In this document: positions 17,739 through 43,206 of the stretch, piece by piece
Position numbering within the stretch: position 1 is the stretch's first letter
Layout: the number at the start of each line of letters is the position of its first letter
Assembly (NCBI GenBank): GCA_000092065.1
Contig: CP000594.1
Source of the DNA: Ostreococcus lucimarinus
Lineage: Eukaryota
Direction: 5' to 3' (one strand)
Length of the DNA: 64,000 bases
The notes under the pieces: generated by a model
Seen by the model: the letters and a program-made list of their open reading frames with translations, nothing else
Database searches by the model: none
Told to the model about the DNA's origin: nothing
Program-made: the position numbers and the translations under genes

Positions 17739-17844
17739 TGACAATGACGGGATTTGAACCCGCGCGCGTGAGCAGTGGAAAGTTTCGCGCGTCGATCCGC
17801 GTGCGGCCTAAATCCACCCCCTTAGACCACTCGGGCACATTGTC
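17739..17844 (-). tRNA. tRNA-Leu(UAG) with an approximately 26-nt intron in the anticodon loop
   Basis: Reverse complement: GACAATG/CATTGTC acceptor, D loop GAGTGGTCTAAG (Leu type), anticodon stem GTGGA/TCCAC, loop TTTAGG + intron (CCGCACGCGGATCGACGCGCGAAACT) + T, long variable arm, T arm GCGGG-TTCAAAT-CCCGT, discriminator A, then a T5 terminator. Confidence 0.85.
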
Positions 17845-26248: not shown

Positions 26249-27241
26249 TCAGTCATGAGCTATCAAGTTTCGAACGACTTCTAAGTGCGCGTCGCGGTAA
26301 CCTTCTCTGTGCGCTACCCATAACGGCAGGAACTCGCGCATGGAGATCTCGCCGTCGTTCGCTCGCTGGAACTCGAGCGCGACGTCGACGCCGAATGACT
26401 CGTCGACGTCTGGGATGACGACTTCGTTCAGCGCCTCGGCGTACCGATCGGAGCCTGGACATTTGCGAGCGCACGCGTACTTCAAACACTCCAACTGTCC
26501 ATACTTGGCGGCTCCCTCGCACGTCCGCTTGTCCCAACAACACCCGTTCTCGCGCGCGTATCGCAAACAGTCCAAGTGTCCATTCGAGGCGGCATGCGCG
26601 CACGTCACCTCGTTCCAAGGACACCCGTTCTCGTGCGCGTATCGCAAACAGTCCAAGTGTCCATTCGAGACGGCAAACAGGCAAGTCCACTCGTTCCAAG
26701 GACACCCGTGCTCGCGCGCGTATCGCAAACAGTCCAAGTGTCCATTCAAGGCGGCATCACGGCACGTCCACACGTCCCAAGGACACCCGTGCTCGTGCGC
26801 GTATTGCAAAGATTGCAAATTGCCGAAACCAGCGGCATACGCGCACGTCCATTGGTCCCACGGCGCCCCGTGCTCGTGCGCGAACTTCATACAAACCGAA
26901 CCTGGAATGCGCGTAGCCCGCGTGCACGGCGCCGCATATTCTGGAAAGACTCTCCTCTCGTCGTCCGCTTCAAAATACCCGCGACCGTGGCCAATCGAGT
27001 GCCACTCGACGCCATCGCGTCTCAAATCTTGTAAAAACGACGCCACCGCATCCCTTGCATCGCTCGAGACGTCCTCACGCTCGAGTTCACCGATGAGTCT
27101 CTCGTAGACTTCCTCGCGCAGTATGGCCTTCGTGAGGTCCACCCCGCCCGCCCGCACATGCTCGAGTTCAGCAATGTACGCACGCTCGAGTGCGTCGTAG
27201 ACTTCATTCTGCCTCCGCGCCTCTTCCTCGTCGAACTCCAT
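26249..27241 (-). CDS. Ankyrin-like repeat protein, paralogue A (about 5 GHLDCLRYAHENGCPW units), 330 aa
   Basis: Repeats ...TCxxAAxNGHLDCLRYA(H/R)ENGCPW(N/D)E.... The N-terminus (EVYDAL...DARDAVASFLQDLRRDGVEW) and C-terminus (GCPGSDRYAEALNEVVIPDVDESFGVDVALEFQ...ISMREFLPLWVAHREGYRDAHLE..RNLIAHD) are shared with the gene at 41755..43206. ATG 27241 verified. Confidence 0.75.
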   Translation of the reverse strand: MEFDEEEARRQNEVYDALERAYIAELEHVRAGGVDLTKAILREEVYERLIGELEREDVSSDARDAVASFLQDLRRDGVEWHSIGHGRGYFEADDERRVFPEYAAPCTRATRIPGSVCMKFAHEHGAPWDQWTCAYAAGFGNLQSLQYAHEHGCPWDVWTCRDAALNGHLDCLRYAREHGCPWNEWTCLFAVSNGHLDCLRYAHENGCPWNEVTCAHAASNGHLDCLRYARENGCCWDKRTCEGAAKYGQLECLKYACARKCPGSDRYAEALNEVVIPDVDESFGVDVALEFQRANDGEISMREFLPLWVAHREGYRDAHLEVVRNLIAHD

Positions 27242-27268
27242 CCCGCGCGTCGCGCCGTGGCGCGCGTC

Positions 27269-27303
27269 GTCTCGTCTCGTCTCGTCTCGTCTCGTCTCGT
27301 CTC
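27269..27303. repeat. (TCGTC)7 pentanucleotide microsatellite in the 5' flank of paralogue A
   Basis: Perfect tandem TCGTC units. The same repeat, as GAGAC on the other strand, lies 5' of paralogue B. Confidence 0.9.
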
Positions 27304-27619
27304 GGAGGACCCGAACCGCCGCGAGTGACGGGAGGGTCAGCCAAAGTTACGTACTGTTGGAGCGTCGACCTCGCAAAAAGCGGACCATCGATAGGTAAAA
27401 ATGCCGACACGAGCTCACAGTTAAACTAAAACCCAAAAAATATGACCCAACCGGTTGGAGACGTGAAGTGGAGGAATGAGCGCCGCACTCGGGCGCCCCG
27501 CGCGCGGCGCCGCTGTGGCGAAAGTTACGGTTTTCTACGGACATTCGGGTATAGAGAGCAATACGACGAAATAAATAAAAAGTGGAAAAATGATAGGATA
27601 AAAAAAGTTAATATACGGC

Positions 27620-27751
27620 TCCTCCCTACCCGAATCGAACGGGTGACCCGCTGATTACCACGTGGTCCTTCGTTCGCGATGACGCTGTGACGCGCCGTAT
27701 TTCAGGAGTGTATCCTACAGTCAGCTGCTCTTCCATCTGAGCTAAGAGAGG
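27620..27751 (-). tRNA. tRNA-Tyr(GUA) with an approximately 59-nt intron
   Basis: Reverse complement: CCTCTCT/AGGGAGG acceptor (one GU pair), D arm GCTC-AGATGGAA-GAGC, anticodon stem GCTGA...TCAGC with CTGTAG then an intron (GATACAC...ACGTGGTA) between positions 37 and 38, T arm ACCCG-TTCGATT-CGGGT, discriminator A, T6 terminator. Eukaryotic tRNA-Tyr genes characteristically carry introns. Confidence 0.85.
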
Positions 27752-27873
27752 CTTTATAGCGCGTACAACGACGTTGTAATCGCTATCAACGAAATAAAAA
27801 GCCGATCGCTCGCCCCCCGATCGCGTTCGCGGTCGTCGCGGTGAAGTTACGGGTAGAACCGCACACGCGCGCG

Positions 27874-28899
27874 ATGGTCGTCTTCGATCGCCCGCGTCGC
27901 GTGTTGTTCTCGACGACGCTTCGCGCGTTCGTCGAGTCGCGCCCGCCGCGCGCGATCGCCCTCGCGACGCCGCGCGACACCGTCGCGAATTTACTTCGAA
28001 TCGCTCGACGCGCGCGCGCGTCGCAAGTCCTCGTCGTTCAGGACGACGCGGCGGAAAACCAATCGACGAATCCGTCGCGGCGAACGCGCGCGGTGAGCAT
28101 GCGCGACGTCGCGCGAGGGTGGATGCGCACGTCGCTGAGCGACGGCGCGTTTTAAGAAAGATTCACGACGCGCGAACTGTGCGACGCGATCGGGGCGACG
28201 ACGCCGGAGATCGTGTGGTACGACGAATCGACGCGCGCGTACGACGCGCACACGCTGTTGGACGTCTGCACGGCGTTGTCTCGAGGACGGAAAATCGCGG
28301 TCGTGCACGACGGCGGAGGCGCGATCAGGGACGTCGTGACGAAGTATGATTTGGTGTACTTTCTGTCGCGTCGAGCGGCGCACTTGGGAGAGATCGCGGA
28401 CATGCCCGTGGCGTCGTTGTTCCCGGGACGACGCGTCGTCTCGGCGCCGGCGTCGGCGTCGGCGCGGGGCGCGGTGCGCGACATGCTCGACGCCGACGTC
28501 TCCGCCATCGGCTTGACCACGCCGGTCGGCGACGGCGCCCCGAACGAAATCATCGCGTGTCTCTCCTTGAACGACTTCCGCCGCATCGATTCTCACGTCG
28601 ACTTCACCGCGATGAAGACGCGCACGGCGCTCGATTTCGTGTCGCGCAAGCGCGCCGACACCTTTCGCGCCGACGATCGCGTCCCGTTCGAGTCCCAACG
28701 CCACGCCACCGGTTCTCGAGCTCGACGGTACGTCGAGCTCGTTTTCGCCAAGTCCGACACCTCGTTCGAGCGCTTGCTCGCGCTTTTCGCCGAGCACGGG
28801 ATTCACCACGTCTTCGTCCTGCGCGCCGACGACGTCCAGCAGCGCGAGTTTCGCGTGCTCACGCCCTCGGACCTCATTGACGCCCTCGCGACGCGTTAG
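27874..28899 (+). CDS. CBS-domain pair protein. The ORF is interrupted by an in-frame TAA at 28153; a 42-nt intron (28119..28160) is one possible resolution.
   Basis: Upstream ORF (...TVANLLRIARRARASQVLVVQDDAA...AVSMRDVARG) and downstream ORF (FTTRELCDAIGATTPEIVWYDESTRAYDAHTLLDVCTALSRGRKIAVVHDGGGAIRDVVTKYDLVYFL... with two more CBS-like units) are in the same frame, separated by one stop codon. First ATG is 27874. Confidence 0.55.
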
Positions 28900-28924
28900 C
28901 GTTGTCACGTCGTCACTCACCCCG

Positions 28925-30556
28925 ATGCTTCCCGCGCTGCGATACGACGTCGACGACGTTCGCGACGCGAGCGACGACGACGACGACCGCGACGACGCCG
29001 GCGACCGCGACCGATTCGTCCCCGGGACAGATGCGACCGTGACGACCGAAAACGCGCTTCTCGCGGCGCGAAAACTGGCGTTCGTCGAGCGCGCGTTCGT
29101 GGACGTCGAAGCGTCGCGATCGATGATGGCGCACGAGGTGCTGGAGCGGTGTAAACAACACGGGATGACGAATAAAGAGTACCAAAGCGCGTGCGCGGAG
29201 CGCGCGGCGTGCGGCGCGTGCGGCTGGACGCCGTGCCCGAACGCGCCGACGCGGGACGATGGGACGACGCAGCGGTACGAGATCGATGGGAAAGCTCGAA
29301 AAGTGCGAGAGATGGCGTTCGTGCGAGCGTTCTGCTCGCGAAAGTGCATGATGATGGCGGAGGCGCTGGGCGAACGCTTGGGCGAACGCGCCGACGCGGT
29401 GAGCGCGCGCGAGGGCGCGGCGCGAGGACGCGCGGCGATGGACGGCGAGGCGAGCGTGGTGAAACAAGACGTGCGCGAGCGCGCGACGACGGCAAAAAAA
29501 GCATTCGATGCGAAAATGCCGGTGCGAAAATCGGACGCCATGGCCAAAGCGGCGACGGTGGACGGGTACGTGCCCAAGGCGGCGCGGAAAAGGATCGAAG
29601 AGGAAAGGGAAAAGGAAAAGACCCATCGAGCCGCGTCGATCACGTGGAACGAGCCGGAGATTGAAAAGATAGAAGAAGAATTGTGGCGAGAGAAACGAGA
29701 GGCCTCGGGCGTCGACCCCGCGGGTGGGGTGTTTTATTTCGACACGTTCGGAGAAGGGAAAAAGCCCGAGGGCGACTTCGTGCCGAGCATCGGCGGCAGG
29801 TTCTCCGAGGGACAACTGCGCACGGAACCGCGCACGGTGGTGGACGAAACTTCGCGAGCGATGGAAAACTTATTGTTAGAGCGCAATGACGGCGAAGATA
29901 CCGAGTCACACGTCGCGTTGGAGGAAGACGTCGCGGAGACGACGCGAAGGATGCTCGCGTCCAAGTTGACGGCGACGCCGATTCCCGGGTTCGTGGACGA
30001 CGGCGACGACGACGACGACGACGCCATGACGGCGGGCTCAGAAGAAGAAGGAGAAGAATCGTTCACCACGGGTGCTCCGAAGATTTCGCAATTCGGCTTG
30101 ACGTGGATGGCGGTTGATAATTTAGTCACCGACGCGACGTTTGCTCTCGTCGCCGGCGACGGCGCGTTCGTGGACAAGCTTCCGCCGCGAGACAGGTACA
30201 CGGTGTCCGTGAGCGAGGCGTGGAACGAAAACTTGGCGAGAACGATTCCGAATTTGTGCGTCACGCTGAATATAAGCGCCGAAACTCGGCGCGTGGAACA
30301 AAATTTGACAACGCTTTTGCGAACGTTTGCGTTCGATCGCCCCGTGCCCGCGTTTACGAGCGAGCGGTGGGCGATGATGGCGCTGTTGTTTATTGAATTG
30401 TTGCTCCACGCCGATCTCGTGAGCAAGGAATCTATCGGGAAAGAAGTATTCGACAACGCGAACGCCATCGCGGTGTTCGCGAACGCGGGGGCGACGAGCG
30501 AGGAGGTGAACATCTTGCGCGAGCGTTTGCGCGGCGACGGCGTGAACTCGAATTAA
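28925..30556 (+). CDS. RPAP2/Rtr1-family protein (RNA polymerase II-associated protein 2-like), 543 aa
   Basis: Rtr1-type zinc-finger region ...YQSACAERAACGACGWTPCPNAP...REMAFVRAFCSRKCM (the CGxxxC ... FCSxxC pattern) followed by a long acidic C-terminal region. ATG 28925; the ORF-track start at 28877 is TTG and overlaps the upstream gene. Confidence 0.55.
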   Translation: MLPALRYDVDDVRDASDDDDDRDDAGDRDRFVPGTDATVTTENALLAARKLAFVERAFVDVEASRSMMAHEVLERCKQHGMTNKEYQSACAERAACGACGWTPCPNAPTRDDGTTQRYEIDGKARKVREMAFVRAFCSRKCMMMAEALGERLGERADAVSAREGAARGRAAMDGEASVVKQDVRERATTAKKAFDAKMPVRKSDAMAKAATVDGYVPKAARKRIEEEREKEKTHRAASITWNEPEIEKIEEELWREKREASGVDPAGGVFYFDTFGEGKKPEGDFVPSIGGRFSEGQLRTEPRTVVDETSRAMENLLLERNDGEDTESHVALEEDVAETTRRMLASKLTATPIPGFVDDGDDDDDDAMTAGSEEEGEESFTTGAPKISQFGLTWMAVDNLVTDATFALVAGDGAFVDKLPPRDRYTVSVSEAWNENLARTIPNLCVTLNISAETRRVEQNLTTLLRTFAFDRPVPAFTSERWAMMALLFIELLLHADLVSKESIGKEVFDNANAIAVFANAGATSEEVNILRERLRGDGVNSN

Positions 30557-30616
30557 GTAACGAGTGAAATGAATAGTGATTTGTGAGTTGACAAGCTAGA
30601 GCATCGTAGAGATTTA

Positions 30617-31208
30617 TTATTGCGACGCCATAACGTTTGCGTCTCGAAGAGGCGATCGATGCGTCACCGCCGGTCTCGTCGCGCACGCGGACGTGGGCTC
30701 GTCAAACATCGGAGGCGGCGTGCCGAGCGGCGACGCCCCGATGGCGACGGCGTTGCCGGAATCCACGCGATCGAGCGTCGTCGCCGCCAATTTCGTTTCG
30801 ATAGCCTCGAGCGTGACCGGTACTTCAACCACAGTCGCTTTCGGCGGCGTACTTTCCGGAGCGTCGTCCTTCGAAACGACGTTCGCGGTCGTCTCTTTCT
30901 CCTCGGCGAAGCACTCGGCGATGATCGCGTCCACGTCGGCTTTGCCGTCGGTGTGATACAGAATGCGTTCGACGACGTTTTTCAACGGATTATTCTCAAA
31001 CTCAGGACGTTGGCACACGTACTCGACGTCTTGAAGCTTTTCAAAGTAAAACTCTCGCTCTTGCTCGGCGCGCTCGACTTGAAGCGCCAACGCGGTGTTG
31101 GTCTCCGTCATTTCTCGCGCGCTCGCGCCGTTCCCCGTCGTCGCTCGCGCGTTCGCCCCAGACGTCGCTCCCGCCCCACTCGTCGTCGTCATCGAGCCTC
31201 GATGCGCT

Positions 31209-31241
<33 letters not shown>

Positions 31242-31762
31242 CTCGATCCTCGCCCCCGAGCGTTCCCTCCTCGATGTCCCGCGCGTTCGCTCGTCACGCT
31301 CGCCTTGCGCGCGCCCGCGTACTCCGCCCCTCCCCGCGCGCACGCCCGTCGCTCCTCGGCGTCGTACGTCGAGTTTTCCACTCCCGCCCCCCCCGTCGCG
31401 GTGTCGTAATAGCGTTTCATCCACTGCAAAAACTCCAAATTATCCAACGGCCGTCCCTTGATCAACTTTTGCACCTCCACGTTCTTCGCCACGTGCATTC
31501 GCTCAAACACCAATTGCAACACTTTATAATTTTGCACGAACTCGTGCTCGCTCTTCGCCTCGAAGTTCACCCTGCGCATCGGCACCACGTCTCCACCGCC
31601 TCCGCTCCAGTGCGCGGCGTCCATGATCTGGCAGTACACCGCCCCGCTCGCGCACTGCTCCACCTTGGTCAGCCGCAGCGCGAGCAGCGCGTTCACCCAC
31701 GCGATCAATTCGTTCCGTCCCACGAAGAACGCGTCGTGCATCATCCCGGTCGTGGACGCCAT
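30617..31762 (-). CDS. Microtubule plus-end binding protein EB1 (RP/EB family)
   Basis: Calponin-homology domain GRNELIAWVNALLALRLTKVEQCASGAVYCQIMDAAH...VNFEAKSEHEFVQNYKVLQLVFERMHVAKNVEVQKLIKGRPLDNLEFLQWMKRYYD, plus a C-terminal EB1 dimerisation region (REFYFEKLQDVEYVCQ). Contains a poly-Thr tract encoded by an (ACG)n repeat. Confidence 0.85.
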
Positions 31763-32026
31763 ATCGTGCGAACCGTTCGTCGTCTCGTCGCGCGTCCCTC
31801 GTCGTCGTCGCGCGTCGCGGTGTGCGCGCGCGCGCAATCATTCATTCATTCCGTCGACGATCCTTTCGCCCGTCGATTCGCGTCCCCGTGGTTCCCCTCG
31901 ATCGTGTTATATACACCAGCGCACTGTATACGCATAGAGACCATTCGGACAAACGGATACTGATGGGCCCAAACGCCCTCGAATGCGTGAGAGCGCGCCG
32001 CGGTCGGATCGCGCGTCGCGCGCGCG

Positions 32027-32956: not shown

Positions 32957-33053
32957 CGTAGTACACGAGTAAAAGATTGTTTTCATAAAACGGACTAGAC
33001 GCGCGCGCGTCGCGATTTATCTACTACGTCTCGCGACGACGACGTTGGCTCGC

Positions 33054-35255: not shown

Positions 35256-35847
35256 CTCCACGTCCCCGTTCGCCGCCGCCACTGTTCACCGCGCGCGCGC
35301 GCGCGTCAGTCTCGCGCATCTCACCCTTCGCGCCCCCTCACCGCGCCCTCGCCGCGTCTTCGCGTCTTCGCTCTTCGAGTCTTCGCGTCGCGTCGCCTCG
35401 CCGCCGCACCGTGCACCGCCGTATCGCGCGTGTTCCTCCGCTCCCCGAACATCAACCACCTGACGCACTCGTTCCCATCTCTCAGCATCTCCTTCGCCGC
35501 GCTCGCGTCCCCCCGTTCGCACGCCCCCAGGAGTCCGCCGCTTTCGTCGTCGACGTCCGCGCTCGCGCGTTCGGCGCTCAGCGGATCCACCTCGGCAAAG
35601 TACCCGCGTATGCCGTCGACAAGGTGTCGCGCCCACGACACCGCGCGCGGGTCCTCGCTCGCCGCGCCGTCGCGCGCGATCGCGCCGCGCGTCGGCATGA
35701 CTCGCGGCGTCGCGACGCGCGTCGCGACGTGGCGCGATTCGCGACCGACGATTCGCGCGACGGCCCGATCGCGATCGATCGATCGCGCGATCGCGTCGAA
35801 CCTCGACGCGAGGTTCGACGCGACGACAACTCTGTCGATCGCGATCG

Positions 35848-38826
35848 ATGACGCGGCGGCGCGACGCGCGCGCGAAGAAGCGCGACGTCGCGACGCGCGA
35901 CGCGAGCGCGATGCGCGCGGAATCGCGCGCGCGACTGACGGCGGACGACGTCGTCGTCGTCGTCGGCGGCGGCGTCGCCGGGCTCGCGCTCGCGTCGTCG
36001 CTCGCGAGGGCGAGGGACGGGACGCGCGGCGCGGCGGACGCGCCGACGTGCGTCGTGCTCGAGCGCGACGGCTCGAGGGAGGCGCGAAGGCAAGGGTACG
36101 GGGTGACGCTGAGCGAGACGAACGCCGCGCTCGCGGGGCTGGGCGTGGGAGAGGCGCTGCGAGCGCGGTCGTGCGCGTCGAGCGCGCACTGGACGTTTGC
36201 GGCGAGCGGACGCGTGCTGGGGTACTACGGAAACGCGTTCGCGGCGACGGCGGGGGGGAAAGGGGACGGGTCGAGCGCGGGGGGGGCGATGGGGAAGCGA
36301 CCGATGAATCTGCGCGTGCCTCGCGACGCGGTGCGGAAGATTTTGTTGGAGAAGATTCCCGAGGCGTGGATTCGGTGGGGGACGCGAGTGGTGGATTACG
36401 CGGAGGACGACGAAAAGGTGACGGTGACGCTGGACACCGGGGAGAAGATCGAGGGCGCGATATTGGTCGCGGCGGATGGCGTGCGATCGGGAACGCGGCG
36501 AGCGCCCGGCGCGGGCGCGGATTTGAAGTCTGGGGAGCTGCGCTACCTCGGCGTCGCGCTCGTGACGGGATTTACGGATTTAGACGACGCGTTGTTGCGC
36601 GGGCAAGGGTTTTATACCGTCGACGGGCGGTCGAGGATGTTCACGATGCCCTTCGAGGCGGCGAACGAAGCTAAGGGCACGCCGCCGCGAAGCATGTGGC
36701 AACTGAGCGTGCGCGTGGACGAGGAGGAGGCGCGCGGATTGGCAAACGCGCCTCGCGAAGACGTCAAGGCGTTCGTTTTAGAGCACACCAAAGGATGGCA
36801 CGATCCGGTGAGCGCGATGTTCGACAACACGGAGTGGGAAGACGCCTGGGCGGGGCCGCTGTACGACCGAGAGGAGCCGCCGACGAGCAAGGCGCGAGCG
36901 AAGGAGACGCCGCACTTGGTCATGCGTAGCTCGAGCTCTCGAGTGATTTGCATAGGCGACGCCGCGCACCCAATGTCGCCGTTTAAAGGTCAAGGCGCGA
37001 ACACGGCGCTTTTCGATGCGTGGGCACTGTCAAAATGGTTACGCAAGGCGCCGCCTCAGACCGCGTTGGCGTGCTTCTACCGCGAGATGGTAGCTCGAGC
37101 GTTCGTGAAAGTGCGCGCCAGTCGAGAAGCGTGTGAAACGTTTCATAGTCCTAGCATACTCACCGAACGCATCCCAGAGTTTGCTGGGATCGATCCGAAA
37201 AAAATCAAGCTCGTGCTCGACACGCTGAACGAGCGAGGCATCGCGGCTTCGATGTGCGACGATCTAGAACCGGCGGTGCGACAGGTTGTCAACGAACTCG
37301 GCGCCGCAGAAGTCGTGAAACCGTACGCGGTGAAGAAAAAGTACGCCACGACGGCGTCCGAGGACGATCGCGGCTCGGAAACTGGATCCACGGCAAGCGA
37401 TGCGACAAATGCGTCTTTGGCGTCTTTTGCCTCGTCGGCTCTGTGCGGCGCGTTGAGCGAGAGCGTCGCCGACGCCGTAGCTTTGGCGTTATCGCGTTCT
37501 AATCAGCCTCCACTCACGACTGCTGAGCGTGAAATTGTCGGGAAATGTCGAGTGAGCGTCAATGGGCGCCGTCCCGCGAACAATTACGCGAGCAGTGCGC
37601 CCATTCGATTACTGGCCGCGAGAGGCGTGGCGAGAGTCGTCAACGGCGAAGAGGCGAGATTCGCTCGTCAAATCGCAGACGTCATCAATGAACGACAAGC
37701 GGCCCGAAATCGCGAAGATACCGTCGATGCTATCGTTGATGATACCGAAGATGATTATTTCATCTCCGCCAGACCCATGTCTGATGGTAAAGTGTTGCTC
37801 ACGACGAAGAAGCACGACGAGGCGCTGACGTCGCTCGGGTTGAAGCAATGCGAAGGTTGTTTGAAGTACTACGCCGTGCACGGCGGTGGCCTGCGGCAAC
37901 ATTGGGAATCTGGAGGCGATAGTCCCGATTGCGCTTCCGCAGCGCAGCGCGCGATGTCGTGCGAGAACACAGAGACTGAATCCAGCGCGTGGCGCGGCTC
38001 AGGCGCGGGGAAACCCAAGGCGTGGCGCACGGGTGGCAACCGCAAAGAGCTTTCGCCTGGAATGTCGGCCGCGTCACGTGGAGATTTGCTCGGCATGCGT
38101 CGAGCGATCGTAGAAGATGGCTGGGACCCAGTAACGGAGAAGGATGCCTTCGGGAGCAGCGCTCTGATGTGGGCCGCGGGCGGCGGTCACGTGGAGGCGT
38201 GCGAATTTCTCGTCGACGAATGCGGAGTCGATCCCAATCACACCGGCCGCAAAGACGGTCGAGTGCCCTTGCACTGGGCCGCTCGTAACGGCGAACTCGA
38301 AGCGTGTCAGTGGCTGGTGAGTCGAGGCGCGAAACCAGGGGTGGCGTCGTATGACGGTGACTTTCCTTTTCATTTGGCGATTTGGAAGAATCATCGAAAC
38401 GTAGCGGAATGGTTCGCGTCCACGCCTGGCTTTGATTGCGGGACGACGAACAGATGGGGGTGCAACGCCGTGTTATGGGCGTGTACCACAGAAACCAATC
38501 AAGACGATGCGCTGAGCATGGTGAAATGGCTCGTCGAGGATCTGAAGGTGGACTTTTCTGTCGTCAACGTCAACGGCCACTCGGCGTTGCACAAGTGCGC
38601 GATTTACGGCCACGAAAGTGTGATCGATTACTTGCTTGAATCGAAGATTGAATCGACAAAACGGGCAAAATTCATCATACCGGATGATAGAAACCAAGCG
38701 CCGAGCGAGTTGGCGCGCGTGAATGGATTTTTAGAGCTCGAAGTCAAGCTTCGACACATGGAGGATGAGACGCTGCGACTTCCGGCGATCGTCGAACCGT
38801 CCAGAGATTCATTCATTCGTGCCTAG
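35848..38826 (+). CDS. Multidomain protein: N-terminal FAD-dependent monooxygenase (zeaxanthin-epoxidase/salicylate-hydroxylase class) fused to C-terminal ankyrin repeats (992 aa)
   Basis: Dinucleotide-binding VVVVGGGVAGLALASSLAR, DG...ILVAADGVRSGTRR, and GDAAHPMSPFKGQGANTALFDAWAL (flavoprotein monooxygenase fingerprints). The C-terminus has ANK repeats (GSSALMWAAGGGHVEACEFLVDECGVDPN, RVPLHWAARNGELEACQWLVSRGA, HSALHKCAIYGHESVIDYLL). ATG 35848 verified. Confidence 0.7.
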   Translation: MTRRRDARAKKRDVATRDASAMRAESRARLTADDVVVVVGGGVAGLALASSLARARDGTRGAADAPTCVVLERDGSREARRQGYGVTLSETNAALAGLGVGEALRARSCASSAHWTFAASGRVLGYYGNAFAATAGGKGDGSSAGGAMGKRPMNLRVPRDAVRKILLEKIPEAWIRWGTRVVDYAEDDEKVTVTLDTGEKIEGAILVAADGVRSGTRRAPGAGADLKSGELRYLGVALVTGFTDLDDALLRGQGFYTVDGRSRMFTMPFEAANEAKGTPPRSMWQLSVRVDEEEARGLANAPREDVKAFVLEHTKGWHDPVSAMFDNTEWEDAWAGPLYDREEPPTSKARAKETPHLVMRSSSSRVICIGDAAHPMSPFKGQGANTALFDAWALSKWLRKAPPQTALACFYREMVARAFVKVRASREACETFHSPSILTERIPEFAGIDPKKIKLVLDTLNERGIAASMCDDLEPAVRQVVNELGAAEVVKPYAVKKKYATTASEDDRGSETGSTASDATNASLASFASSALCGALSESVADAVALALSRSNQPPLTTAEREIVGKCRVSVNGRRPANNYASSAPIRLLAARGVARVVNGEEARFARQIADVINERQAARNREDTVDAIVDDTEDDYFISARPMSDGKVLLTTKKHDEALTSLGLKQCEGCLKYYAVHGGGLRQHWESGGDSPDCASAAQRAMSCENTETESSAWRGSGAGKPKAWRTGGNRKELSPGMSAASRGDLLGMRRAIVEDGWDPVTEKDAFGSSALMWAAGGGHVEACEFLVDECGVDPNHTGRKDGRVPLHWAARNGELEACQWLVSRGAKPGVASYDGDFPFHLAIWKNHRNVAEWFASTPGFDCGTTNRWGCNAVLWACTTETNQDDALSMVKWLVEDLKVDFSVVNVNGHSALHKCAIYGHESVIDYLLESKIESTKRAKFIIPDDRNQAPSELARVNGFLELEVKLRHMEDETLRLPAIVEPSRDSFIRA

Positions 38827-38869
38827 TATATTTTATTTATTAGTGATTCTTTGTTACACATTGTTGTTG

Positions 38870-41323
38870 TTAAAGCCACGGCGTATCATTTGCAGATAAC
38901 TCAATCTGGCGCTTAAGCCGCTCGAGCTGCGACTCCTCCTCTAATCGCTCGCGCTCGTCTTCCAATTCGACGAGTCGACGGATGCGATCGAGTTCGCCCG
39001 TAATCTCGTCGTCGGCTGACTTCTCAGCCCACCTTTCGATGAGTTTGTGCGCGCGCTCTGTTTGCTCCTTGCTCAAATCTTCAGCGCTTGTGACTTCCTC
39101 CACTCTCGTCGCTGCGGACTCGTTCTCTTCGTCGTTATCCTTGACGTCGCTCGCCGTCGCGGTCTTCTTTTGCGACGTCTCCGCGCCATCTTTTCCGATG
39201 TCGCTCACACTGCGGGAACGCTTCCGATCGAACGACGACGTCTTACCGACTGATGGCGAATCATCGTCAGCACCGCTACTTTCCGCGCTATGCTCGTGCA
39301 TCACCCTGGTGTGCTCGAGATGCGGCCGGTTTGGCGCCACGCCTCGCGTGCGAATTTTCGCCAATTCACCGACGAGCGTATCTCTTTCACCAACTAATGA
39401 TGCCACCATCGCGCGCAAATAGTACGCATACGAGCACACAACGTAAAACAACAACGCCGAGGATGAAAAGAACCACGAAAACGCGGGGAACATGTCCGCA
39501 ATGACGCGGAGCAGGGACGAGTTGGAGTGATACGACGGCACGTACGCGGGCTTCCCGATTTGGTACCTGCACTCATTCGCCACATCCACGGTTTGCGTCA
39601 ACGAGCGCTGCGCCGCCAACAAGTGCGTCTTAGTCTTGGTCAACTTCGACTTCGTATCCGCGGCGTCTTTCTCCGCACTCTCGGCGCGCGCCGTCGCGAT
39701 GTCTTTGGCGGCTTTGAGCTTCAACGCTTGCGCCGACGTGGACTCGCAATACGTCGCTCGCGTCGTCATCTTTTGTAACGACTCTTGTAACTGCGCCACA
39801 GTCATCGCTGACGAACCTAAGCGATTGAATCGGTCTTCGGCTAACTTTTGTGCGCTCTGCGCCGCGGCGACGTCGGCTTTAGCCTTGGTGAGTTTCACCT
39901 CTAAATCGGCAACTTGGACGACGGAATCTGAAACCTTGGCCTCCGCGGAAGCGATTGCGGCGTTTTGACTCGCGTCGGGCACGCCGCCACCGAACGTACG
40001 ACACGCCTCTAATTCTCTTCGCTGCATCGCCGACGCACGCGCTAAAATCGTCACGTTTCGTTGCGCCTCGGAGAGATGCTGGCGCACGACGGAGGTCGCC
40101 CCGGCGCCGACAAAGGAAGGCGAGACGCCAGTCAAGATGGACGCGAGCGCGATGGCGCCGAAAATCGCCAACAGTACGACGACTATAATGATGGTCGACA
40201 TGTGCTGCGACGATGACGATGACGTTCGCGGCGACGGCTGCGAGACCGCGCTCGCAACCGGCGTCATCGTCGTGGCGTCCACCAGCTTCGTCGTCTTCGT
40301 CTTCGTCATCTTCTTCGCATCGGCACTCTTCTTCGTCACGACTACCGTTTCCTCCGCTTCATTTTCTCCGGACTCGCGCACGACGACTTTCCGTCGTCGA
40401 ACTTGCGCGCGCTGCGTTTGAGGCGCGGACGTCGTTGTCGTGGACGTCGTCGACGTCCCCGACGTCGTTCGTTCGACCATCACCGCGGCTTCAATCTCTT
40501 CCACGACGTGTGACACCGGCATCGGCACCGCCGCGGGGTCAGCCTTGGTCCACAATCTGCTCTTCATGTCGCCCACGCTCACGGTGGCGTGTCGTTCCCT
40601 GCGGCGAACCGCCGCCGCCTTGGTCGGCGCCGCGCTCGGCTCCGCCGCCGCCGCGGGTTCCACCGCGCGCTTCCGTCCCCCTCGCGCCTCAACGCTCTCC
40701 TCCGTCGCCTGTCGCCAATGCCTCAAGAACTTCTTCGCCCGCCACACCAAATACTTGTGAATCACGTCGCGTCTCGCCTCCCTCGTCCGTCGCACGCTCG
40801 CCTTCCACTCCCTCAGCGTCCTCAACTTTTTCGCGTGTTCCCGCTGCGCCCTCGATCGCTCCAGCGTCATCTCCCGTCGTTTCGCGTTAAACTTCGTGAT
40901 TCGCGCCCACGCGATCAGCGTTCGCGCGCTCGTTCGTCGCGACCGATCCCGCCACAGCGCCGTCGCGCGCGCGTTCGTCTCCCTTCGTCGTCTCGTCACG
41001 TGCGTCCACCCGCTCCACGCCAACCGCGCGATCGTCGAGCTCGCCATCGCCTCTTCGATCGTTTTCGCCGCGTTTCGCCGCGTCGTCCCGACGTCCGCGA
41101 TCGGCGCGTCGTCGTTCATCGCGTCGCGCGACATCGCGATTCGATTCGATTCGTCGTCCGTCAACAGTACGCGCGTCGCGCGGTCGACGAATTCGCGTTG
41201 GACGCGCGTCGGGCGCGCCGATGCGCGTCCTCGATCGTCGAGTCCGTCGACGGCGAACCCGACGCGCGGTCGAGTCGCGCGGTCGAGTCGCGGCGCGCTG
41301 CGGCGCGCCGACGATCGATGCAT
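38870..41323 (-). CDS. Coiled-coil membrane protein with W/R-rich repeats and two hydrophobic segments; start uncertain
   Basis: Long ORF 38870..41560 whose 5' end overlaps the tRNA-Thr gene, so the start was moved to an internal ATG (41323, or alternatively 41134). TM STIIIVVVLLAIFGAIALASILTG, extensive coiled coil, a second hydrophobic segment FSWFFSSSALLFYVVCSYAYYL, and an acidic C-terminus. Confidence 0.5.
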   Translation of the reverse strand: MHRSSARRSAPRLDRATRPRVGFAVDGLDDRGRASARPTRVQREFVDRATRVLLTDDESNRIAMSRDAMNDDAPIADVGTTRRNAAKTIEEAMASSTIARLAWSGWTHVTRRRRETNARATALWRDRSRRTSARTLIAWARITKFNAKRREMTLERSRAQREHAKKLRTLREWKASVRRTREARRDVIHKYLVWRAKKFLRHWRQATEESVEARGGRKRAVEPAAAAEPSAAPTKAAAVRRRERHATVSVGDMKSRLWTKADPAAVPMPVSHVVEEIEAAVMVERTTSGTSTTSTTTTSAPQTQRAQVRRRKVVVRESGENEAEETVVVTKKSADAKKMTKTKTTKLVDATTMTPVASAVSQPSPRTSSSSSQHMSTIIIVVVLLAIFGAIALASILTGVSPSFVGAGATSVVRQHLSEAQRNVTILARASAMQRRELEACRTFGGGVPDASQNAAIASAEAKVSDSVVQVADLEVKLTKAKADVAAAQSAQKLAEDRFNRLGSSAMTVAQLQESLQKMTTRATYCESTSAQALKLKAAKDIATARAESAEKDAADTKSKLTKTKTHLLAAQRSLTQTVDVANECRYQIGKPAYVPSYHSNSSLLRVIADMFPAFSWFFSSSALLFYVVCSYAYYLRAMVASLVGERDTLVGELAKIRTRGVAPNRPHLEHTRVMHEHSAESSGADDDSPSVGKTSSFDRKRSRSVSDIGKDGAETSQKKTATASDVKDNDEENESAATRVEEVTSAEDLSKEQTERAHKLIERWAEKSADDEITGELDRIRRLVELEDERERLEEESQLERLKRQIELSANDTPWL

Positions 41324-41503
41324 TCGATCCCCCGCGCGCGATCGATAGAACCCGTAACTCGGCGCGATCGCGCGAGCGGGGACGCTCGGCTGGAGATTTA
41401 TCGACAATTTACCTCGTGTGCGACCGTATACGGGCGCGTAAGACGCGGATGTGCGATCGTCGATTTTCGGCGATCGGGACAGACCGCACCACTCGGAGCG
41501 AAC

Positions 41504-41575
41504 GCTTCTATGGCCCAGTGGTAAGGCGTCCCCTTCGTAAGGGGAAGATCCTCGGTTCAATCCCGAGTAGGAGCA
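41504..41575 (+). tRNA. tRNA-Thr(CGU), no intron
   Basis: GCTTCTA/TAGGAGC acceptor, anticodon arm TCCCC-TTCGTAA-GGGGA (anticodon CGT), T arm CTCGG-TTCAATC-CCGAG, discriminator A, downstream T7 terminator. The D stem has only 3 clean base pairs. Confidence 0.75.
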
Positions 41576-41692
41576 AATCGTATATTAAATTTTTTTAGCC
41601 TATCATTTACAAATATTTTATTTATTTCATCTCACTGCGTCACATGCCCGAATGTCCGATTGCTCGATTGTCCAACCGCGGCGGTTCAGGTC

Positions 41693-41728
41693 GAGACGAG
41701 ACGAGACGAGACGAGACGAGACGAGACG
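41693..41728. repeat. (GAGAC)7 pentanucleotide microsatellite in the 5' flank of paralogue B
   Basis: Perfect tandem units. It is the mirror image of the repeat at 27269..27303, and the adjacent 27 bp up to the ATG are identical between the two copies. Confidence 0.9.
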
Positions 41729-41754
41729 ACGCGCGCCACGGCGCGACGCGCGGG

Positions 41755-43206
41755 ATGTCGCTCGCGGAGGAACAGGCGCGGAGGGACGATGAAGTCTACG
41801 ACGCACTCATCCGTGAACTCGAGCGCGTCCCGGACGATGCAAGGGATGCGGTGGCGTCGTTTTTACAAGATTTGAGACGCGACGGCGTCGATTGGTACCG
41901 GGTTGGCGACGGTGGCGAGTTTGATGACAAGGAGAGTTTCTTTCGAACAGTACATGCGGGGGCGTGCATGCGGGCTGCGCGCATTATGGGTTCAGGATGT
42001 TTGAAGTTCGCGCGCGAGCACGGGTGTCCTTGGAACGAGTGGACTTGCCTGTTTGCCGCCATGAATGGAAATCTGGACTGTTTGAAGTACGCGCACGAGA
42101 ACGGGTGTCCTTGGGACAACAGGACGTGCGATAATGCCGCCCGTTATGGACATTTGGACTGTTTGGAGTACGCGCACGAGAACGGGTGTCCTTGGAACTG
42201 GGCGACGTGCGATAATGCCGCCTATTATGGACATTTGGAATGTTTGGAGTACGCGCACGAGAACGGGTGTCCTTGGGACGAGATGACGTGCCTGTTTGCC
42301 GCCAAGTATGGACATTTGGAATGTTTGAAGTACGCGCACGAGCACGGGTGTCCTTGGGACGTGTCTACGTGCCAGGCTGCCGCCGAGTATGGACATTTGG
42401 ACTGTTTGCGATACGCGCACGAGAACGGGTGTCCTTGGGACAAGCGGACGTGCGATAAGGCCGCCTATTATGGACATTTGGAGTGTTTGAAGTACGCGCA
42501 CGAGCACGGGTGTCCTTGGGACAACAGGACGTGCGATAATGCCGCCCGTTATGGACATTTGGAATGTTTGGAGTACGCGCACGAGAACGGGTGTCCTTGG
42601 GACGAGATGACGTGCCTGTTTGCCGCCTCGAATGGACATTTGGAATGTTTGAAGTACGCGCACGAGCACGGGTGTCCTTGGGACTATTGGACGTGCTATA
42701 ATGCCGCCTATTATGGACATTTGGAGTGTTTGAAGTACGCGCACGAGCACGGGTGTCCTTGGGACAACAGGACGTGCGATAATGCCGCCCGTTATGGACA
42801 TTTGGAATGTTTGAAGTACGCGCACGAGAACGGGTGTCCTTGGGACGAGGTGACGTGCGATAATGCCGCCTATTATGGACATTTGGAGTGTTTGAAGTAC
42901 GCGCGCGAGAACGGGTGTCCTTGGAACGAGAAGACGTGCATGGATGCCGCCGAGAACGGACATTTGGAATGTTTGAAGTACGCGTGCGCTCACGGATGTC
43001 CAGGCTCCGATCGGTACGCCGAGGCGCTGAACGAAGTCGTCATCCCAGACGTCGACGAGTCATTCGGCGTCGAAGTCGCGCTCGCGTTTCAACAAAACGG
43101 CGGCGAGATCTCCATGCGCGAGTTCCTGCCGTTATGGGTAGCGCACAGAGAAGGTTACCGCGACGCGCACTTAGAAATCGCTCGAAACTGGATAGCTCAC
43201 GATTGA
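41755..43206 (+). CDS. Ankyrin-like repeat protein, paralogue B (about 12 tandem 33-aa GHLECLKYAHENGCPWD units), 483 aa
   Basis: The repeat array NGCPW(D/N)xxTCxxAAxYGHLECL(K/E)YAHE is encoded by near-identical 99-bp tandem DNA units at about 42030..42990. The N- and C-terminal domains are homologous to the gene at 26249..27241. ATG 41755; the upstream part of the ORF is the (GAGAC)n read-through. Confidence 0.75.
   Translation: MSLAEEQARRDDEVYDALIRELERVPDDARDAVASFLQDLRRDGVDWYRVGDGGEFDDKESFFRTVHAGACMRAARIMGSGCLKFAREHGCPWNEWTCLFAAMNGNLDCLKYAHENGCPWDNRTCDNAARYGHLDCLEYAHENGCPWNWATCDNAAYYGHLECLEYAHENGCPWDEMTCLFAAKYGHLECLKYAHEHGCPWDVSTCQAAAEYGHLDCLRYAHENGCPWDKRTCDKAAYYGHLECLKYAHEHGCPWDNRTCDNAARYGHLECLEYAHENGCPWDEMTCLFAASNGHLECLKYAHEHGCPWDYWTCYNAAYYGHLECLKYAHEHGCPWDNRTCDNAARYGHLECLKYAHENGCPWDEVTCDNAAYYGHLECLKYARENGCPWNEKTCMDAAENGHLECLKYACAHGCPGSDRYAEALNEVVIPDVDESFGVEVALAFQQNGGEISMREFLPLWVAHREGYRDAHLEIARNWIAHD

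What the first reader, a model, noticed from the sequence alone, without database searches (positions are those of the whole stretch)
26249..43206. Inverted pair of Mimivirus-type ankyrin-repeat paralogues, each with the same (GAGAC)n 5' flank and an adjacent tRNA gene, bracketing a 14.4 kb gene block
The genes at 26249..27241(-) and 41755..43206(+) are paralogues. They share N-terminal (EVYDAL...DARDAVASFLQDLRRDGV) and C-terminal (GCPGSDRYAEALNEVVIPDVDESFGV...ISMREFLPLWVAHREGYRDAHLE) domains. The 27 bp preceding each ATG (gacgcgcgccacggcgcgacgcgcggg) and a seven-unit GAGAC/TCGTC microsatellite are also identical. The similarity continues a further ~30 bp outward (cgcggcggttc(a/g)ggtc...). Both promoters point into the bracketed segment, so the arrangement is a large inverted repeat. 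Each copy has a Pol III tRNA gene immediately inside it: tRNA-Tyr ~380 bp from A and tRNA-Thr ~180 bp from B. The repeat unit (NGHLECLKYAHENGCPWDExTCxxAA) is, to my recollection, the distinctive variant of ANK repeats that is massively expanded in Mimiviridae ankyrin proteins. That recollection is unverified; if it holds, it raises the question of host–giant-virus gene exchange. Copy number differs sharply between the two copies (~5 versus ~12 units), and the B array consists of near-identical 99-bp DNA units. This indicates recent expansion or concerted evolution.
Basis: partly seen in the sequence, partly recalled or inferred. Interest (0 to 1): 0.65.

Follow-up and report, generated by a model that had tools for sequence, protein, structure and literature searches.

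The report
Recombining tRNA-adjacent ankyrin gene pair
Two outward-facing copies of a fast-changing ankyrin-repeat gene, each just downstream of a tRNA gene, bracket 14.5 kb of an Ostreococcus lucimarinus chromosome, and environmental contigs indicate that recombination among family members changes repeat number, makes mosaic genes and flips the DNA between them; the proposed giant-virus link reduces to a repeat type that is widespread in protists and giant viruses.

Summary
The window is nuclear DNA of Ostreococcus lucimarinus CCE9901. Genes A (26249-27241, -) and B (41755-43206, +) are paralogues in inverted, outward-transcribed orientation. They share a (GAGAC)7.6 microsatellite, an identical leader and an 82-bp segment that starts 3-4 nt after tRNA-Tyr (A) or tRNA-Thr (B).

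Corrections:
- The repeat unit is 81 bp (27 aa), not 99 bp.
- Array units average about 85% identity.

What it is: two members of a lineage-restricted family (N-terminal region, variable 27-aa 'GCPWD' ankyrin units, private C-terminal helical region). In metagenome contigs with flanks about 98-99.9% identical to the window:
- alleles run from 213 to 573 aa;
- A/B mosaics are common;
- both reciprocal junctions of an inverted 14.5-kb segment occur;
- the common arrangement places B next to a TRAF-gene block that lies about 240 genes away in the reference, beside a third, decayed paralogue.

Best explanation: non-allelic homologous recombination plus unequal exchange within the arrays. The main caveat is possible assembly chimeras.

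The same 27-aa unit occurs in Pandoravirus, Bodo saltans virus and giant-virus MAGs, but also in a diatom and an amoeba. The genes have host-like GC, and their C-terminal region was not found in viral contigs. The repeated tRNA adjacency is non-random and unexplained.

The parts
26249..27241 (-). Gene A, 330 aa (XP_001421506, 'predicted protein'). It has an N-terminal helical region, about 5-6 ankyrin-like units of 27 aa and a family-specific C-terminal region.
   Evidence: ORF; Pfam Ank_2/Ank_4; exact match to the O. lucimarinus CCE9901 protein; AF2 ankyrin core pLDDT 75-90
26483..26882 (-). A repeat array: period 81 bp, 4.9 copies, 81% matches.
   Evidence: TRF; 27-aa spacing of GxPW anchors
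27242..27323 (-). A proximal 5' flank shared with B (94% over 82 bp). It holds the 27-bp leader (27242-27268), (GAGAC)7.6 (27267-27304) and cgcggcggttcgggtc.
27324..27537 (-). A-specific 214-bp spacer insertion; B has 18 bp here. Its length varies among environmental alleles.
27538..27617 (-). tRNA-proximal segment shared with B (82% over 82 bp): T-run, 'cctatca', an AT-rich stretch and 'cccgaatgtccg'. It starts 3 nt after tRNA-Tyr.
   Evidence: blastn; sequence
27620..27751 (-). tRNA-Tyr(GTA) with a 59-nt intron at the canonical 37/38 position. It is on the same strand as gene A, 379 bp upstream of its ATG.
   Evidence: ARAGORN with introns; spliced sequence called tRNA-Tyr(GTA)
27752..41503 (.). 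Bracketed segment S2. It encodes a CBS protein, RPAP2, EB1, prolyl 4-hydroxylase, a 742-aa protein, an FAD monooxygenase-ankyrin fusion and an 896-aa protein. It is found in both orientations relative to outside markers in metagenome contigs. No recombinase was called in it.
41504..41575 (+). tRNA-Thr(CGT), on the same strand as gene B, 180 bp upstream of its ATG.
   Evidence: ARAGORN and Rfam at 62.7 bits
41579..41658 (+). tRNA-proximal segment shared with A. It contains an upstream ATG at 41644 that is in frame with gene B through the microsatellite.
41677..41754 (+). B proximal 5' flank shared with A: (GAGAC)7.6 at 41692-41729 and the 27-bp leader at 41728-41754.
41755..43206 (+). Gene B, 483 aa (520 aa from 41644), with 12 units of 27 aa. 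It is the longest B-locus allele seen. No exact copy is in the protein collection.
41997..42984 (+). B repeat array: period 81 bp, 12.2 copies, 85% matches. Units 7 and 10 are identical, and a 111-bp exact repeat lies at a 243-bp offset.
   Evidence: TRF; unit matrix

Best explanation
A and B are two members of a small, Ostreococcus-restricted gene family. Each member encodes a helical N-terminal region, a variable number of 27-residue 'GCPWD' ankyrin-type units and a private C-terminal helical region. Each also carries a conserved ~180-bp 5' module: T-run, CCTATCA, AT-rich stretch, CCCGAxTGTCCG, (GAGAC)n and a 27-bp leader. In A and B this module begins 3-4 nt after a tRNA gene; in another member (L008) a related flank follows a tRNA-like gene.

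Proposed mechanism:
1. Family members serve as dispersed homology for non-allelic homologous recombination.
2. Within an array, unequal exchange or slippage between 81-bp units changes repeat number.
3. Between paralogues, gene conversion and crossing-over make mosaic genes and keep the flanks near-identical (concerted evolution).
4. Because A and B are inverted, a crossover between them flips the 14.5 kb that lies between.
5. Exchange between B and a third paralogue C (beside a TRAF gene, about 240 genes away in the reference) relates the reference chromosome to the commoner environmental arrangement by a rearrangement of several hundred kb, most simply an inversion.

Status of the steps:
- Shown: the anatomy, the allele-length and mosaic diversity, and the alternative junctions in assembled contigs.
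- Inferred: that the junctions reflect real haplotypes rather than assembly chimeras; the inversion geometry of the large event; and the protein's role. I take the protein to be a modular binding protein whose variable residues sit on the canonical ankyrin target-binding face and therefore evolve quickly. Its partner is unknown.
For: SOURCE AND PARALOGY
- The source organism and gene A's identity come from an exact protein look-up.
- Paralogy and shared flanks.

ALLELE DIVERSITY (flanks about 98-99.9% identical to the window)
- A-locus alleles are 214-573 aa. B-locus alleles run from 213 to at least 394 aa, against 483 aa in the window. (GAGAC)n is 5-9.
- Mosaics are common. The window's own gene A carries a B-type tract (RRQNEVYDAL) where environmental A alleles read RRDDAFYDEL.

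JUNCTIONS, written as (5' context, 3' context)
S1 = RPL6 side; S2L = tRNA-Tyr end of the segment; S2R = tRNA-Thr end; S3 = window DNA beyond B; S4 = TRAF block.
- (S2L,S1): the window and L001, L002, L098-L103.
- The whole of S1-A-S2-B-S4 lies on one 31-kb contig, L098. (S2R,S4) also occurs in L004.
- The inverted orientation gives (S2R,S1) in L003. Its reciprocal (S2L,S4) occurs in L006 (15 kb, MEGAHIT k141), L005 and L012, from different samples and assemblers, with different alleles and crossover points. L105 adds an S4-type 3' end at S2L.
- The longest exact A/B match is 78-80 bp, shorter than k=141.

THIRD PARALOGUE
- Paralogue C lies beside TRAF with its own upstream context in L019. It has the same leader and microsatellite and is frameshifted, while neighbouring genes on that contig are intact.
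- The TRAF-adjacent gene is XP_001421208 / A4S742, on the same 708,927-bp chromosome as A (A4S7S6). UniProt numbering is positional within the window.

PROTEIN
- Variable unit positions 19, 20, 23, 24, 27 and 1 correspond to DARPin-randomised surface positions (plus general knowledge of ankyrin design).
- The model is an ankyrin solenoid whose best PDB matches are DARPins, FEM1 and ASB9.

NO DEDICATED RECOMBINASE
- None is called in S2.
Against: - All population evidence comes from assembled metagenome contigs. No read-level or long-read spanning evidence was available.
- L003, the only contig with the (S2R,S1) junction, is an exact chimera of the B 5' end and A 3' end seen on L098 from the same project. 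The switch falls in a 36-bp identical stretch. That is what real recombination predicts, but it is also what an assembly chimera would look like.
- The S2L / A-type spacer is joined to several further 3' contexts on single contigs: L109 (S6), L108 (S5) and L110 (S8). The S4-linked 3' end is joined to yet another upstream context in L011. So much variety could mean rampant exchange, more paralogues sharing the A-type spacer, or some chimerism.
- The several-hundred-kb distance and the inverted orientation of C relative to B are inferred from accession numbering, not read from the chromosome.
- Protein function is untested. The terminal regions are modelled with low confidence (pLDDT 30-59).
- The mechanism does not explain the tRNA adjacency.
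Confidence: 0.65

Rival explanations
1. Static inverted segmental duplication. A and B are an old inverted duplicate pair that no longer recombines, and the rearranged junctions and mosaic genes in metagenome contigs are assembly chimeras made where assemblers cross the shared repeats in mixed-strain samples.
For: - L003 is an exact chimera of sequences seen on L098 from the same project.
- Several contigs end or start inside the shared spacer or the repeats, which marks a graph-breaking repeat.
- Many different junctions are each seen once.
Against: - (S2L,S4) recurs in 3-4 independent samples and assemblers, with different alleles and different crossover points.
- L006 is a k=141 contig, whereas A/B exact identity is at most 80 bp.
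- The finished reference differs from L098 and L004 in what follows B, and L019 independently supports the reference-type C/TRAF junction.
- The clonal reference gene A itself contains a B-type conversion tract.
- Repeat-number variation is seen at loci with unambiguous flanks on both sides.
Confidence: 0.15
2. tRNA-targeted cassette. The unit (5' module plus ankyrin gene, about 1.2-1.7 kb) spreads by duplicative insertion immediately downstream of tRNA genes. This could happen by template switching at Pol III-bound, fork-stalling sites or through an unknown trans-acting activity. The inverted pair would then result from two such insertions, and later recombination would be secondary.
For: - The shared sequence begins 3-4 nt after two different tRNA genes, Tyr and Thr.
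- Another member, in L008, follows a tRNA-like gene with the same kind of flank. L017 starts with a probable tRNA 3' half.
- The genome has only 44 tRNA genes (PMC3673656).
- Variant contigs have breakpoints in or at the tRNAs (L099, L010, L107).
Against: - No transposase, reverse transcriptase or integrase, no terminal repeats and no target-site duplication were seen.
- Paralogue C has no tRNA upstream.
- L107 keeps the tRNA-Thr flank without any ankyrin gene, so the flank may belong to the tRNA locus.
- Only 3-4 loci had informative upstream sequence. The last test locus, L110, had only 121 bp upstream.
Confidence: 0.15
3. Giant-virus origin. The pair is a recent acquisition from, or donation to, a Mimiviridae-like giant virus.
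For: - The same 27-aa GCPWD unit is abundant in giant-virus contigs, with up to 72% identity over 233 aa. It also occurs in Pandoravirus and Bodo saltans virus.
- BsV ankyrin arrays likewise vary from 4 to 17 repeats and form direct and inverted duplications (PMC5871332).
Against: - The unit is also found in a diatom, an amoeba and MMETSP transcripts.
- GC of A and B is host-like (0.59 and 0.56), against 0.27-0.44 for most viral copies.
- The C-terminal region was not found in IMG/VR and is confined to about 17 clusters overall.
- The flanking genes are cellular and syntenic across strains.
- Consensus-driven repeats give inflated identities, so similarity alone is weak evidence.
Confidence: 0.04

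Closest known systems
Inversion polymorphisms produced by non-allelic homologous recombination between inverted paralogous repeats (as at inverted segmental duplications in other eukaryotes)
   Same: Two homologous copies in inverted orientation bracket a unique segment. Both orientations and both reciprocal junction types are observed. The crossovers fall inside the homologous copies. No dedicated recombinase is present.
   Different: The repeats here are short (1.4-1.6 kb), are themselves hypervariable protein-coding genes, and belong to a multi-locus family that also seems to mediate a much larger rearrangement. The organism is a haploid picoalga with a 13-Mb genome. The evidence comes from metagenome assemblies, not from typed individuals.
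Expanded ankyrin-repeat gene arrays of giant viruses (Bodo saltans virus with 148 copies, pandoraviruses; 'genomic accordion', PMC5871332)
   Same: The same 27-residue GCPWD-type unit, variable unit number per gene, recent direct and inverted duplications, and presumed roles as binding proteins.
   Different: This is a cellular chromosome with host-like GC and conserved cellular synteny. The family has a C-terminal region not found in viral contigs (the N-terminal region was not searched separately). It has only a handful of loci rather than hundreds of tandem genes.
tRNA-gene-targeted mobile elements (Dictyostelium TRE5/TRE3, yeast Ty3)
   Same: Family members sit at a short, nearly fixed distance from different tRNA genes.
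   Different: There is no reverse transcriptase, integrase, LTR or target-site duplication. The unit encodes only an ankyrin protein. At least one member lacks a tRNA.
Designed and consensus ankyrin repeat proteins (DARPins) and ankyrin substrate adaptors (FEM1, ASB9)
   Same: Predicted helix-pair solenoid. The variable residues fall at the positions randomised in DARPins. The best structural matches are these proteins.
   Different: The unit is 27 rather than 33 residues, with a shortened hairpin loop. No SOCS box, F-box or PRANC domain was detected. The C-terminal region has no family assignment.

Membership tests
Ankyrin repeat superfamily (Pfam Ank clan) | Significant match to ankyrin profile HMMs | tested here: met
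   Ank_4 E=1.3e-49 and Ank_2 E=2.1e-28 for B; Ank_2 E=8.6e-14 for A
Ankyrin repeat superfamily (Pfam Ank clan) | Canonical 33-residue repeat period | tested here: not met
   The period is exactly 27 aa (81 bp) in A, B and the viral homologues. This is a shortened variant.
Ankyrin repeat superfamily (Pfam Ank clan) | Stacked helix-turn-helix solenoid fold | tested here: met
   AF2 gives paired helices every 27 residues with pLDDT 75-90. The top Foldseek PDB hits are ankyrin proteins and DARPins, E about 1e-5 to 1e-3.
Giant-virus (Mimiviridae-type) ankyrin proteins | The same repeat variant is present in giant-virus genomes | tested here: met
   76 IMG/VR loci, including GVMAGs and Pandoravirus-sized genomes, with a 27-aa period. 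Named hits come from Bodo saltans virus and Pandoravirus salinus.
Giant-virus (Mimiviridae-type) ankyrin proteins | The variant is specific to giant viruses, so that its presence implies exchange | tested here: not met
   Comparable hits in Seminavis robusta (55-56%), Balamuthia mandrillaris and MMETSP transcripts
Giant-virus (Mimiviridae-type) ankyrin proteins | Whole-protein architecture or viral-like composition shared with viral genes | tested here: not met
   The C-terminal region was not found in IMG/VR. GC is 0.56-0.59, like the host. The neighbours are cellular and syntenic.
Recombination-mediated invertible segment (inverted-repeat NAHR) | Inverted homologous repeats flank the segment | tested here: met
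   A(-) and B(+) are 78-94% identical over about 1.4 kb, with exact matches up to 78 bp.
Recombination-mediated invertible segment (inverted-repeat NAHR) | Both orientations exist, with both reciprocal junctions | tested here: met
   (S2L,S1) and (S2R,S4) on L098 and others, against (S2R,S1) on L003 and (S2L,S4) on L005, L006 and L012. Caveat: these are assembled contigs, not reads.
Recombination-mediated invertible segment (inverted-repeat NAHR) | Read-level or single-molecule confirmation in clonal material | not testable with these tools
   No reads or strain assemblies were available.
tRNA-targeted mobile elements | Insertion at a fixed short distance from tRNA genes of different identity | tested here: inconclusive
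   A (Tyr), B (Thr) and L008 (tRNA-like) fit, and L017 probably does. C does not. Few loci had upstream sequence.
tRNA-targeted mobile elements | Element-encoded integrase or reverse transcriptase, terminal repeats, target-site duplication | tested here: not met
   The unit holds only the ankyrin ORF. No terminal repeats or duplications appear at its ends.
Ankyrin plus degron-adaptor proteins (poxvirus ANK/PRANC F-box, ASB ANK-SOCS) | C-terminal F-box/PRANC or SOCS box | tested here: not met
   No Pfam match to the C-terminal 70 aa at E<0.01. AF2 shows two long helices with low confidence.

The most novel reading that the evidence does not exclude
The ankyrin unit with its 5' module is a self-propagating, tRNA-gene-associated cassette family in a minimal eukaryotic genome. 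New copies are laid down immediately downstream of Pol III genes. The resulting dispersed copies act as a built-in system that both diversifies a binding protein (repeat shuffling, as in contingency loci; possibly in the arms race with prasinoviruses) and repeatedly re-arranges a standard chromosome in natural populations.
Probability: 0.15. Interest if true: 0.75.

Novelty: new variant of a known kind. Interest (0 to 1): 0.5.

Why it matters
- In Mamiellales, structural hypervariability has been described mainly on the outlier chromosomes. None of the papers surfaced in my searches mentions this locus or family, though I read only their listed titles and abstracts on this point.
- If the junctions are real, an ordinary chromosome of one of the ocean's most abundant picoeukaryotes carries a small gene family that drives inversions of 14.5 kb and of several hundred kb in wild populations. 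The family itself changes repeat number from about 1 to 14 units.
- That would provide direct, PCR-testable markers of homologous recombination and haplotype structure in an alga whose sexual cycle has not been observed.
- It would also provide a candidate fast-evolving binding protein to test in host-virus work.
- The tRNA adjacency, if general, would be an unusual link between Pol III genes and gene-family spread.
- It corrects a tempting but weak inference: similarity of consensus-type ankyrin repeats to giant-virus proteins is not evidence of exchange.

Tried and rejected
NEGATIVE OR UNINFORMATIVE SEARCHES
- Exact look-up of gene A's product in the contig index found nothing. The organism was identified through the cluster look-up instead.
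- The word-indexed search with the C-terminal 83 aa returned only 24 short fragments, none with an informative name (one is labelled 'partial [bacterium]'). The full HMMER search confirmed that the region is rare but carries no names or context.
- The viral scan for the C-terminal region was negative.
- The search with B found no full-length 483-aa allele, and no B orthologue on the 66-kb contig of L001.

STRUCTURE
- AF2 gave low confidence for both terminal regions. Foldseek returned only generic ankyrin proteins, so no functional assignment was possible.

tRNA DETECTION
- Rfam, at both gathering and E-value thresholds, does not detect the intron-containing tRNAs. Default ARAGORN also misses tRNA-Tyr. 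With introns allowed it first mislabels it Asn(GTT), with a non-canonical intron. Splicing at 37/38 resolved this.

LOOK-UPS THAT FELL SHORT
- The last contig look-up, meant as an independent test of the tRNA prediction (P0021), gave only 121 bp of upstream sequence.

IDEAS CONSIDERED AND REJECTED
- A site-specific invertase system: no recombinase is called in or beside S2.
- An endogenous viral element: the composition and the neighbours are cellular.
- The tRNA-Leu flank at 17738-17844 as a third copy of the shared flank: it is not similar.
- L011 as a second example of the C-up/TRAF junction: its upstream context is different again.

Full report
SOURCE AND ANATOMY

The window is nuclear DNA of Ostreococcus lucimarinus CCE9901, from a 708,927-bp chromosome. 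The ORF at 32027-32956 is exactly XP_001421326 (prolyl 4-hydroxylase). The ORF at 26249-27241(-) is exactly XP_001421506, annotated 'predicted protein'.

Gene A (330 aa) and gene B (41755-43206, +, 483 aa; the ORF is open from 41644, giving 520 aa) are clear paralogues. Their 5' ends face the 14.5 kb between them, so they are transcribed outward.

DNA similarity covers several stretches:
- the coding regions, ending 5 bp after the stop codons;
- the 82 bp before each ATG, at 94% identity; this stretch holds (GAGAC)7.6 and the leader, and microsatellite, leader and ATG together form a 66-bp exact match;
- an 82-bp segment that begins 3-4 nt after a tRNA gene at each locus (27617-27538 against 41579-41658, 82%).

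A 214-bp A-specific insertion (27324-27537) separates the last two stretches in A.

The tRNAs are Thr(CGT) at 41504-41575 and an intron-containing gene at 27620-27751(-). Spliced at the canonical 37/38 site, the second is called tRNA-Tyr(GTA) and has the eukaryotic C1-G72/A73 identity pair. Both tRNAs lie on the same strand as their ankyrin gene.

THE REPEATS

Tandem Repeats Finder gives a period of 81 bp, not 99. A has 4.9 copies and B has 12.2 copies at 85% matches. At protein level the GxPW anchors are spaced exactly 27 residues apart.

Pairs of units typically share 65-76 of 81 bases. Units 7 and 10 of B are identical, and a 111-bp exact repeat lies at a three-unit offset, so part of the B array is a recent block duplication.

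Pfam assigns the units to the ankyrin families. An AlphaFold model shows a regular helix-pair solenoid with pLDDT 75-90, and its best PDB matches are DARPins, FEM1 and ASB9.

The variable positions of the unit are 19, 20, 23, 24, 27 and 1, in the pattern WD-xx-TC-xx-AA-xx-GH. These align with the positions randomised in designed ankyrin binders. That mapping rests on general knowledge of ankyrin design, not on a test made here.

The N-terminal 116 residues and the C-terminal 55 residues are predicted helical, but with low confidence. Neither has a Pfam assignment.

A LINEAGE-RESTRICTED, HYPERVARIABLE FAMILY

Searches with A and B returned thousands of repeat-only matches, plus a tight group of full-length relatives from marine metagenomes.

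The C-terminal region is rare. In a full HMMER scan of 1.84 billion representatives, 26 proteins pass E<=0.001. About 17 of these matches extend beyond the first ~24 query residues, which are still ankyrin repeat. The region was not found in IMG/VR viral contigs.

On contigs whose flanks are about 98-99.9% identical to the window:
- the A-locus gene ranges from 214 to 573 aa;
- the B-locus gene ranges from 213 to at least 394 aa, so the reference B at 483 aa is the longest seen;
- (GAGAC)n ranges from 5 to 9.

Many proteins are A/B mosaics. Even the reference gene A carries a B-type tract (RRQNEVYDAL) where environmental A alleles read RRDDAFYDEL.

REARRANGEMENTS

I name the contexts as follows:
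- S1: the RPL6/SSNA1/Myb side of the window.
- S2L and S2R: the tRNA-Tyr and tRNA-Thr ends of the bracketed segment.
- S3: window DNA beyond B.
- S4: a block absent from the window (zf-TRAF, a 285-aa gene, MINDY, glutaredoxin/DEP).

Junctions are written as (5' context, 3' context).

- The reference has (S2L,S1) and (S2R,S3).
- Among ten contigs fetched around the exact P4H protein, all six that reach S1 show (S2L,S1). One 31-kb contig, L098, spans S1-A-S2-B-S4, so B is followed by TRAF rather than by S3. L004 shows the same.
- L003 joins S2R to S1.
- L006 (15 kb, MEGAHIT k141), L005 and L012 join S2L to S4. L105 has an S4-type 3' end at S2L.

The last two junction types are the two reciprocal products expected if S2 is inverted by a crossover between A and B on the L098-type background. 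The crossover points differ. In L006 and L012 the switch is near the start codon. In L003 it is in the N-terminal region. In L005 it lies further 3'.

A THIRD PARALOGUE AND A LARGE REARRANGEMENT

The 285-aa (177-aa in the reference) gene next to TRAF is XP_001421208 / A4S742, on the same chromosome as A (A4S7S6). Within the window, UniProt accessions run in gene order (S6, T0, U1, U2). The TRAF block therefore lies about 244 genes from A in the reference.

A 63-kb contig, L019, carries the exact reference allele of that gene. On it, TRAF is preceded by a third family member, C. C has the same leader and microsatellite and has its own upstream context (a 372-aa gene, TLC, ProRS, Nup160). It is riddled with frameshifts while its neighbours are intact, so it is probably a pseudogene.

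The reference and the common environmental arrangement thus differ by an exchange between B and C. A haploid genome cannot lose the intervening genes, so the exchange must be balanced. Protein-accession blocks suggest that C and B are on opposite strands, and an inversion of several hundred kb is then the simplest reading. This last step is an inference.

CAVEATS

Everything at population level rests on assemblies.
- L003 is an exact join of the B 5' end and the A 3' end seen on L098, across a 36-bp identical stretch. Real recombination and an assembler chimera would look the same.
- Further single-contig junctions exist: L109 (S2L,S6); L108 and L110, where an A-type spacer precedes other 3' contexts; and L011, where another upstream context joins an S4-linked truncated gene. 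They may reflect more paralogues, more exchange or some chimerism.

Against a purely artefactual reading:
- (S2L,S4) recurs across samples and assemblers with different alleles.
- The A/B exact identity, at most 80 bp, is well below k=141.
- The finished reference genuinely differs from L098 and L004.
- The clonal reference contains a conversion tract.

I put about 0.65 on the recombination explanation as a whole. The small inversion and the large rearrangement are each somewhat more likely than not to be real haplotypes.

THE tRNA ASSOCIATION

O. lucimarinus has 44 tRNA genes in about 13 Mb (PMC3673656), so two paralogues each starting a few bases after a tRNA is not chance. Further observations bear on this:
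- In L008, another member (A-type N-terminus, context S7) follows a tRNA-like gene that has a 206-nt insertion, and it has the same kind of flank.
- L017, a divergent member, begins with a probable tRNA 3' half.
- C has no tRNA upstream.
- Variant contigs break in or at the tRNAs. In L099 tRNA-Thr is truncated. L010 breaks within the tRNA-Tyr acceptor. L107 keeps tRNA-Thr plus about 110 bp of flank but has no ankyrin gene.

I found no transposase, terminal repeat or target duplication. The association is real but unexplained. Targeted duplicative insertion at Pol III genes is the most interesting reading (rival, about 0.15).

THE GIANT-VIRUS QUESTION

The 27-aa GCPWD unit is abundant in giant-virus MAGs (up to 72% identity over 233 aa), in Pandoravirus-sized genomes and in Bodo saltans virus. 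BsV's ankyrin genes likewise vary in unit number and form inverted duplications (PMC5871332).

The unit is equally present in a diatom (Seminavis, 55-56%), in Balamuthia and in MMETSP transcripts. The Ostreococcus genes have host-like GC, 0.56-0.59 against 0.27-0.44 for most viral copies. They sit among syntenic cellular genes, and their C-terminal region was not found in viral contigs. There is no evidence of exchange at this locus.

VERDICT

The locus is an inverted pair from a small, lineage-restricted, tRNA-adjacent ankyrin family. The family evolves by unequal exchange and ectopic recombination, and it appears to rearrange a standard chromosome in wild populations. This is a new variant of known kinds of process and is of moderate interest. 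The tRNA link is the part most worth following.

Noticed in passing
window 41644-41754; L003, L008, L019, L098-L106: At the B, C and L008 loci an upstream ATG (MPECPIARLSN... / ...DCPI...) stays in frame with the main ORF through (GAGAC)n, which then encodes RDETR repeats. The reference allele (n=7) and the common allele (n=5) differ by 12 bp, which preserves the frame. L004 (n=8) and all A-locus alleles lack the in-frame extension. Microsatellite length might therefore alter the N-terminus or translation.
   Followed up: partly
L006:4427-4663; L008:381-661; window 27620-27751: The tRNA-Tyr intron is 59 nt in the reference, but ARAGORN models 147 nt in L006, where about 105 bp of extra sequence is present. 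The tRNA-like gene upstream of the L008 family member carries a 206-nt insertion at a non-canonical position. Rfam misses all of these.
   Followed up: partly
L099:19520-19575; L010:1-125; L107:13873-14030: Some environmental contigs have breakpoints inside or right after the flanking tRNAs. In L099 tRNA-Thr is cut after the anticodon arm. In L010 tRNA-Tyr diverges in its 3' acceptor strand. L107 keeps tRNA-Thr and about 110 bp of flank, then continues into a PsaK/RNF157 context with no ankyrin gene.
   Followed up: partly
window 27522-27530 and 27844-27852 (both on the - strand): The 9-mer CCGTAACTT occurs twice in the window (0.26 expected; 3 of 100 shuffles reach 2). The two copies bracket tRNA-Tyr and its shared flank. 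CGTAACTT-like motifs also lie upstream of paralogue C (L019) and of the L008 member. It may be a promoter element or a repeat boundary.
   Followed up: partly
L023, L024, L028, L034, L041 (IMG/VR giant-virus contigs): In several giant-virus contigs the GCPWD ankyrin genes are much GC-richer than their flanks (for example 0.41 against 0.27, 0.68 against 0.41 and 0.53 against 0.34). This hints at amino-acid-driven composition or at acquisition from GC-richer sources.
   Followed up: no
window 34064-34293: An 18/42-bp tandem repeat encodes a long (K)PEPEPEP low-complexity tract inside the 742-aa ORF at 33054-35282(-). The length of this protein varies among environmental contigs, from 705 to 741 aa.
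   Followed up: no
window 17738-17844(-) and 51209-52096(+): tRNA-Leu(TAG) with a 26-nt intron is a real tRNA (Rfam 48 bits). Its 3' flank is unrelated to the family flank. ARAGORN's 'tRNA-Glu with an 803-nt intron' at 51209-52096 lies inside a coding ORF and looks like a false positive.
   Followed up: partly
L006:14451-15170; L019:3539-3702: Another GCPWD-type ankyrin gene, with repeats about 80-85% identical to B's at DNA level, lies about 8.6 kb beyond TRAF in the S4 block. Further repeat-bearing genes could therefore act as recombination partners.
   Followed up: no
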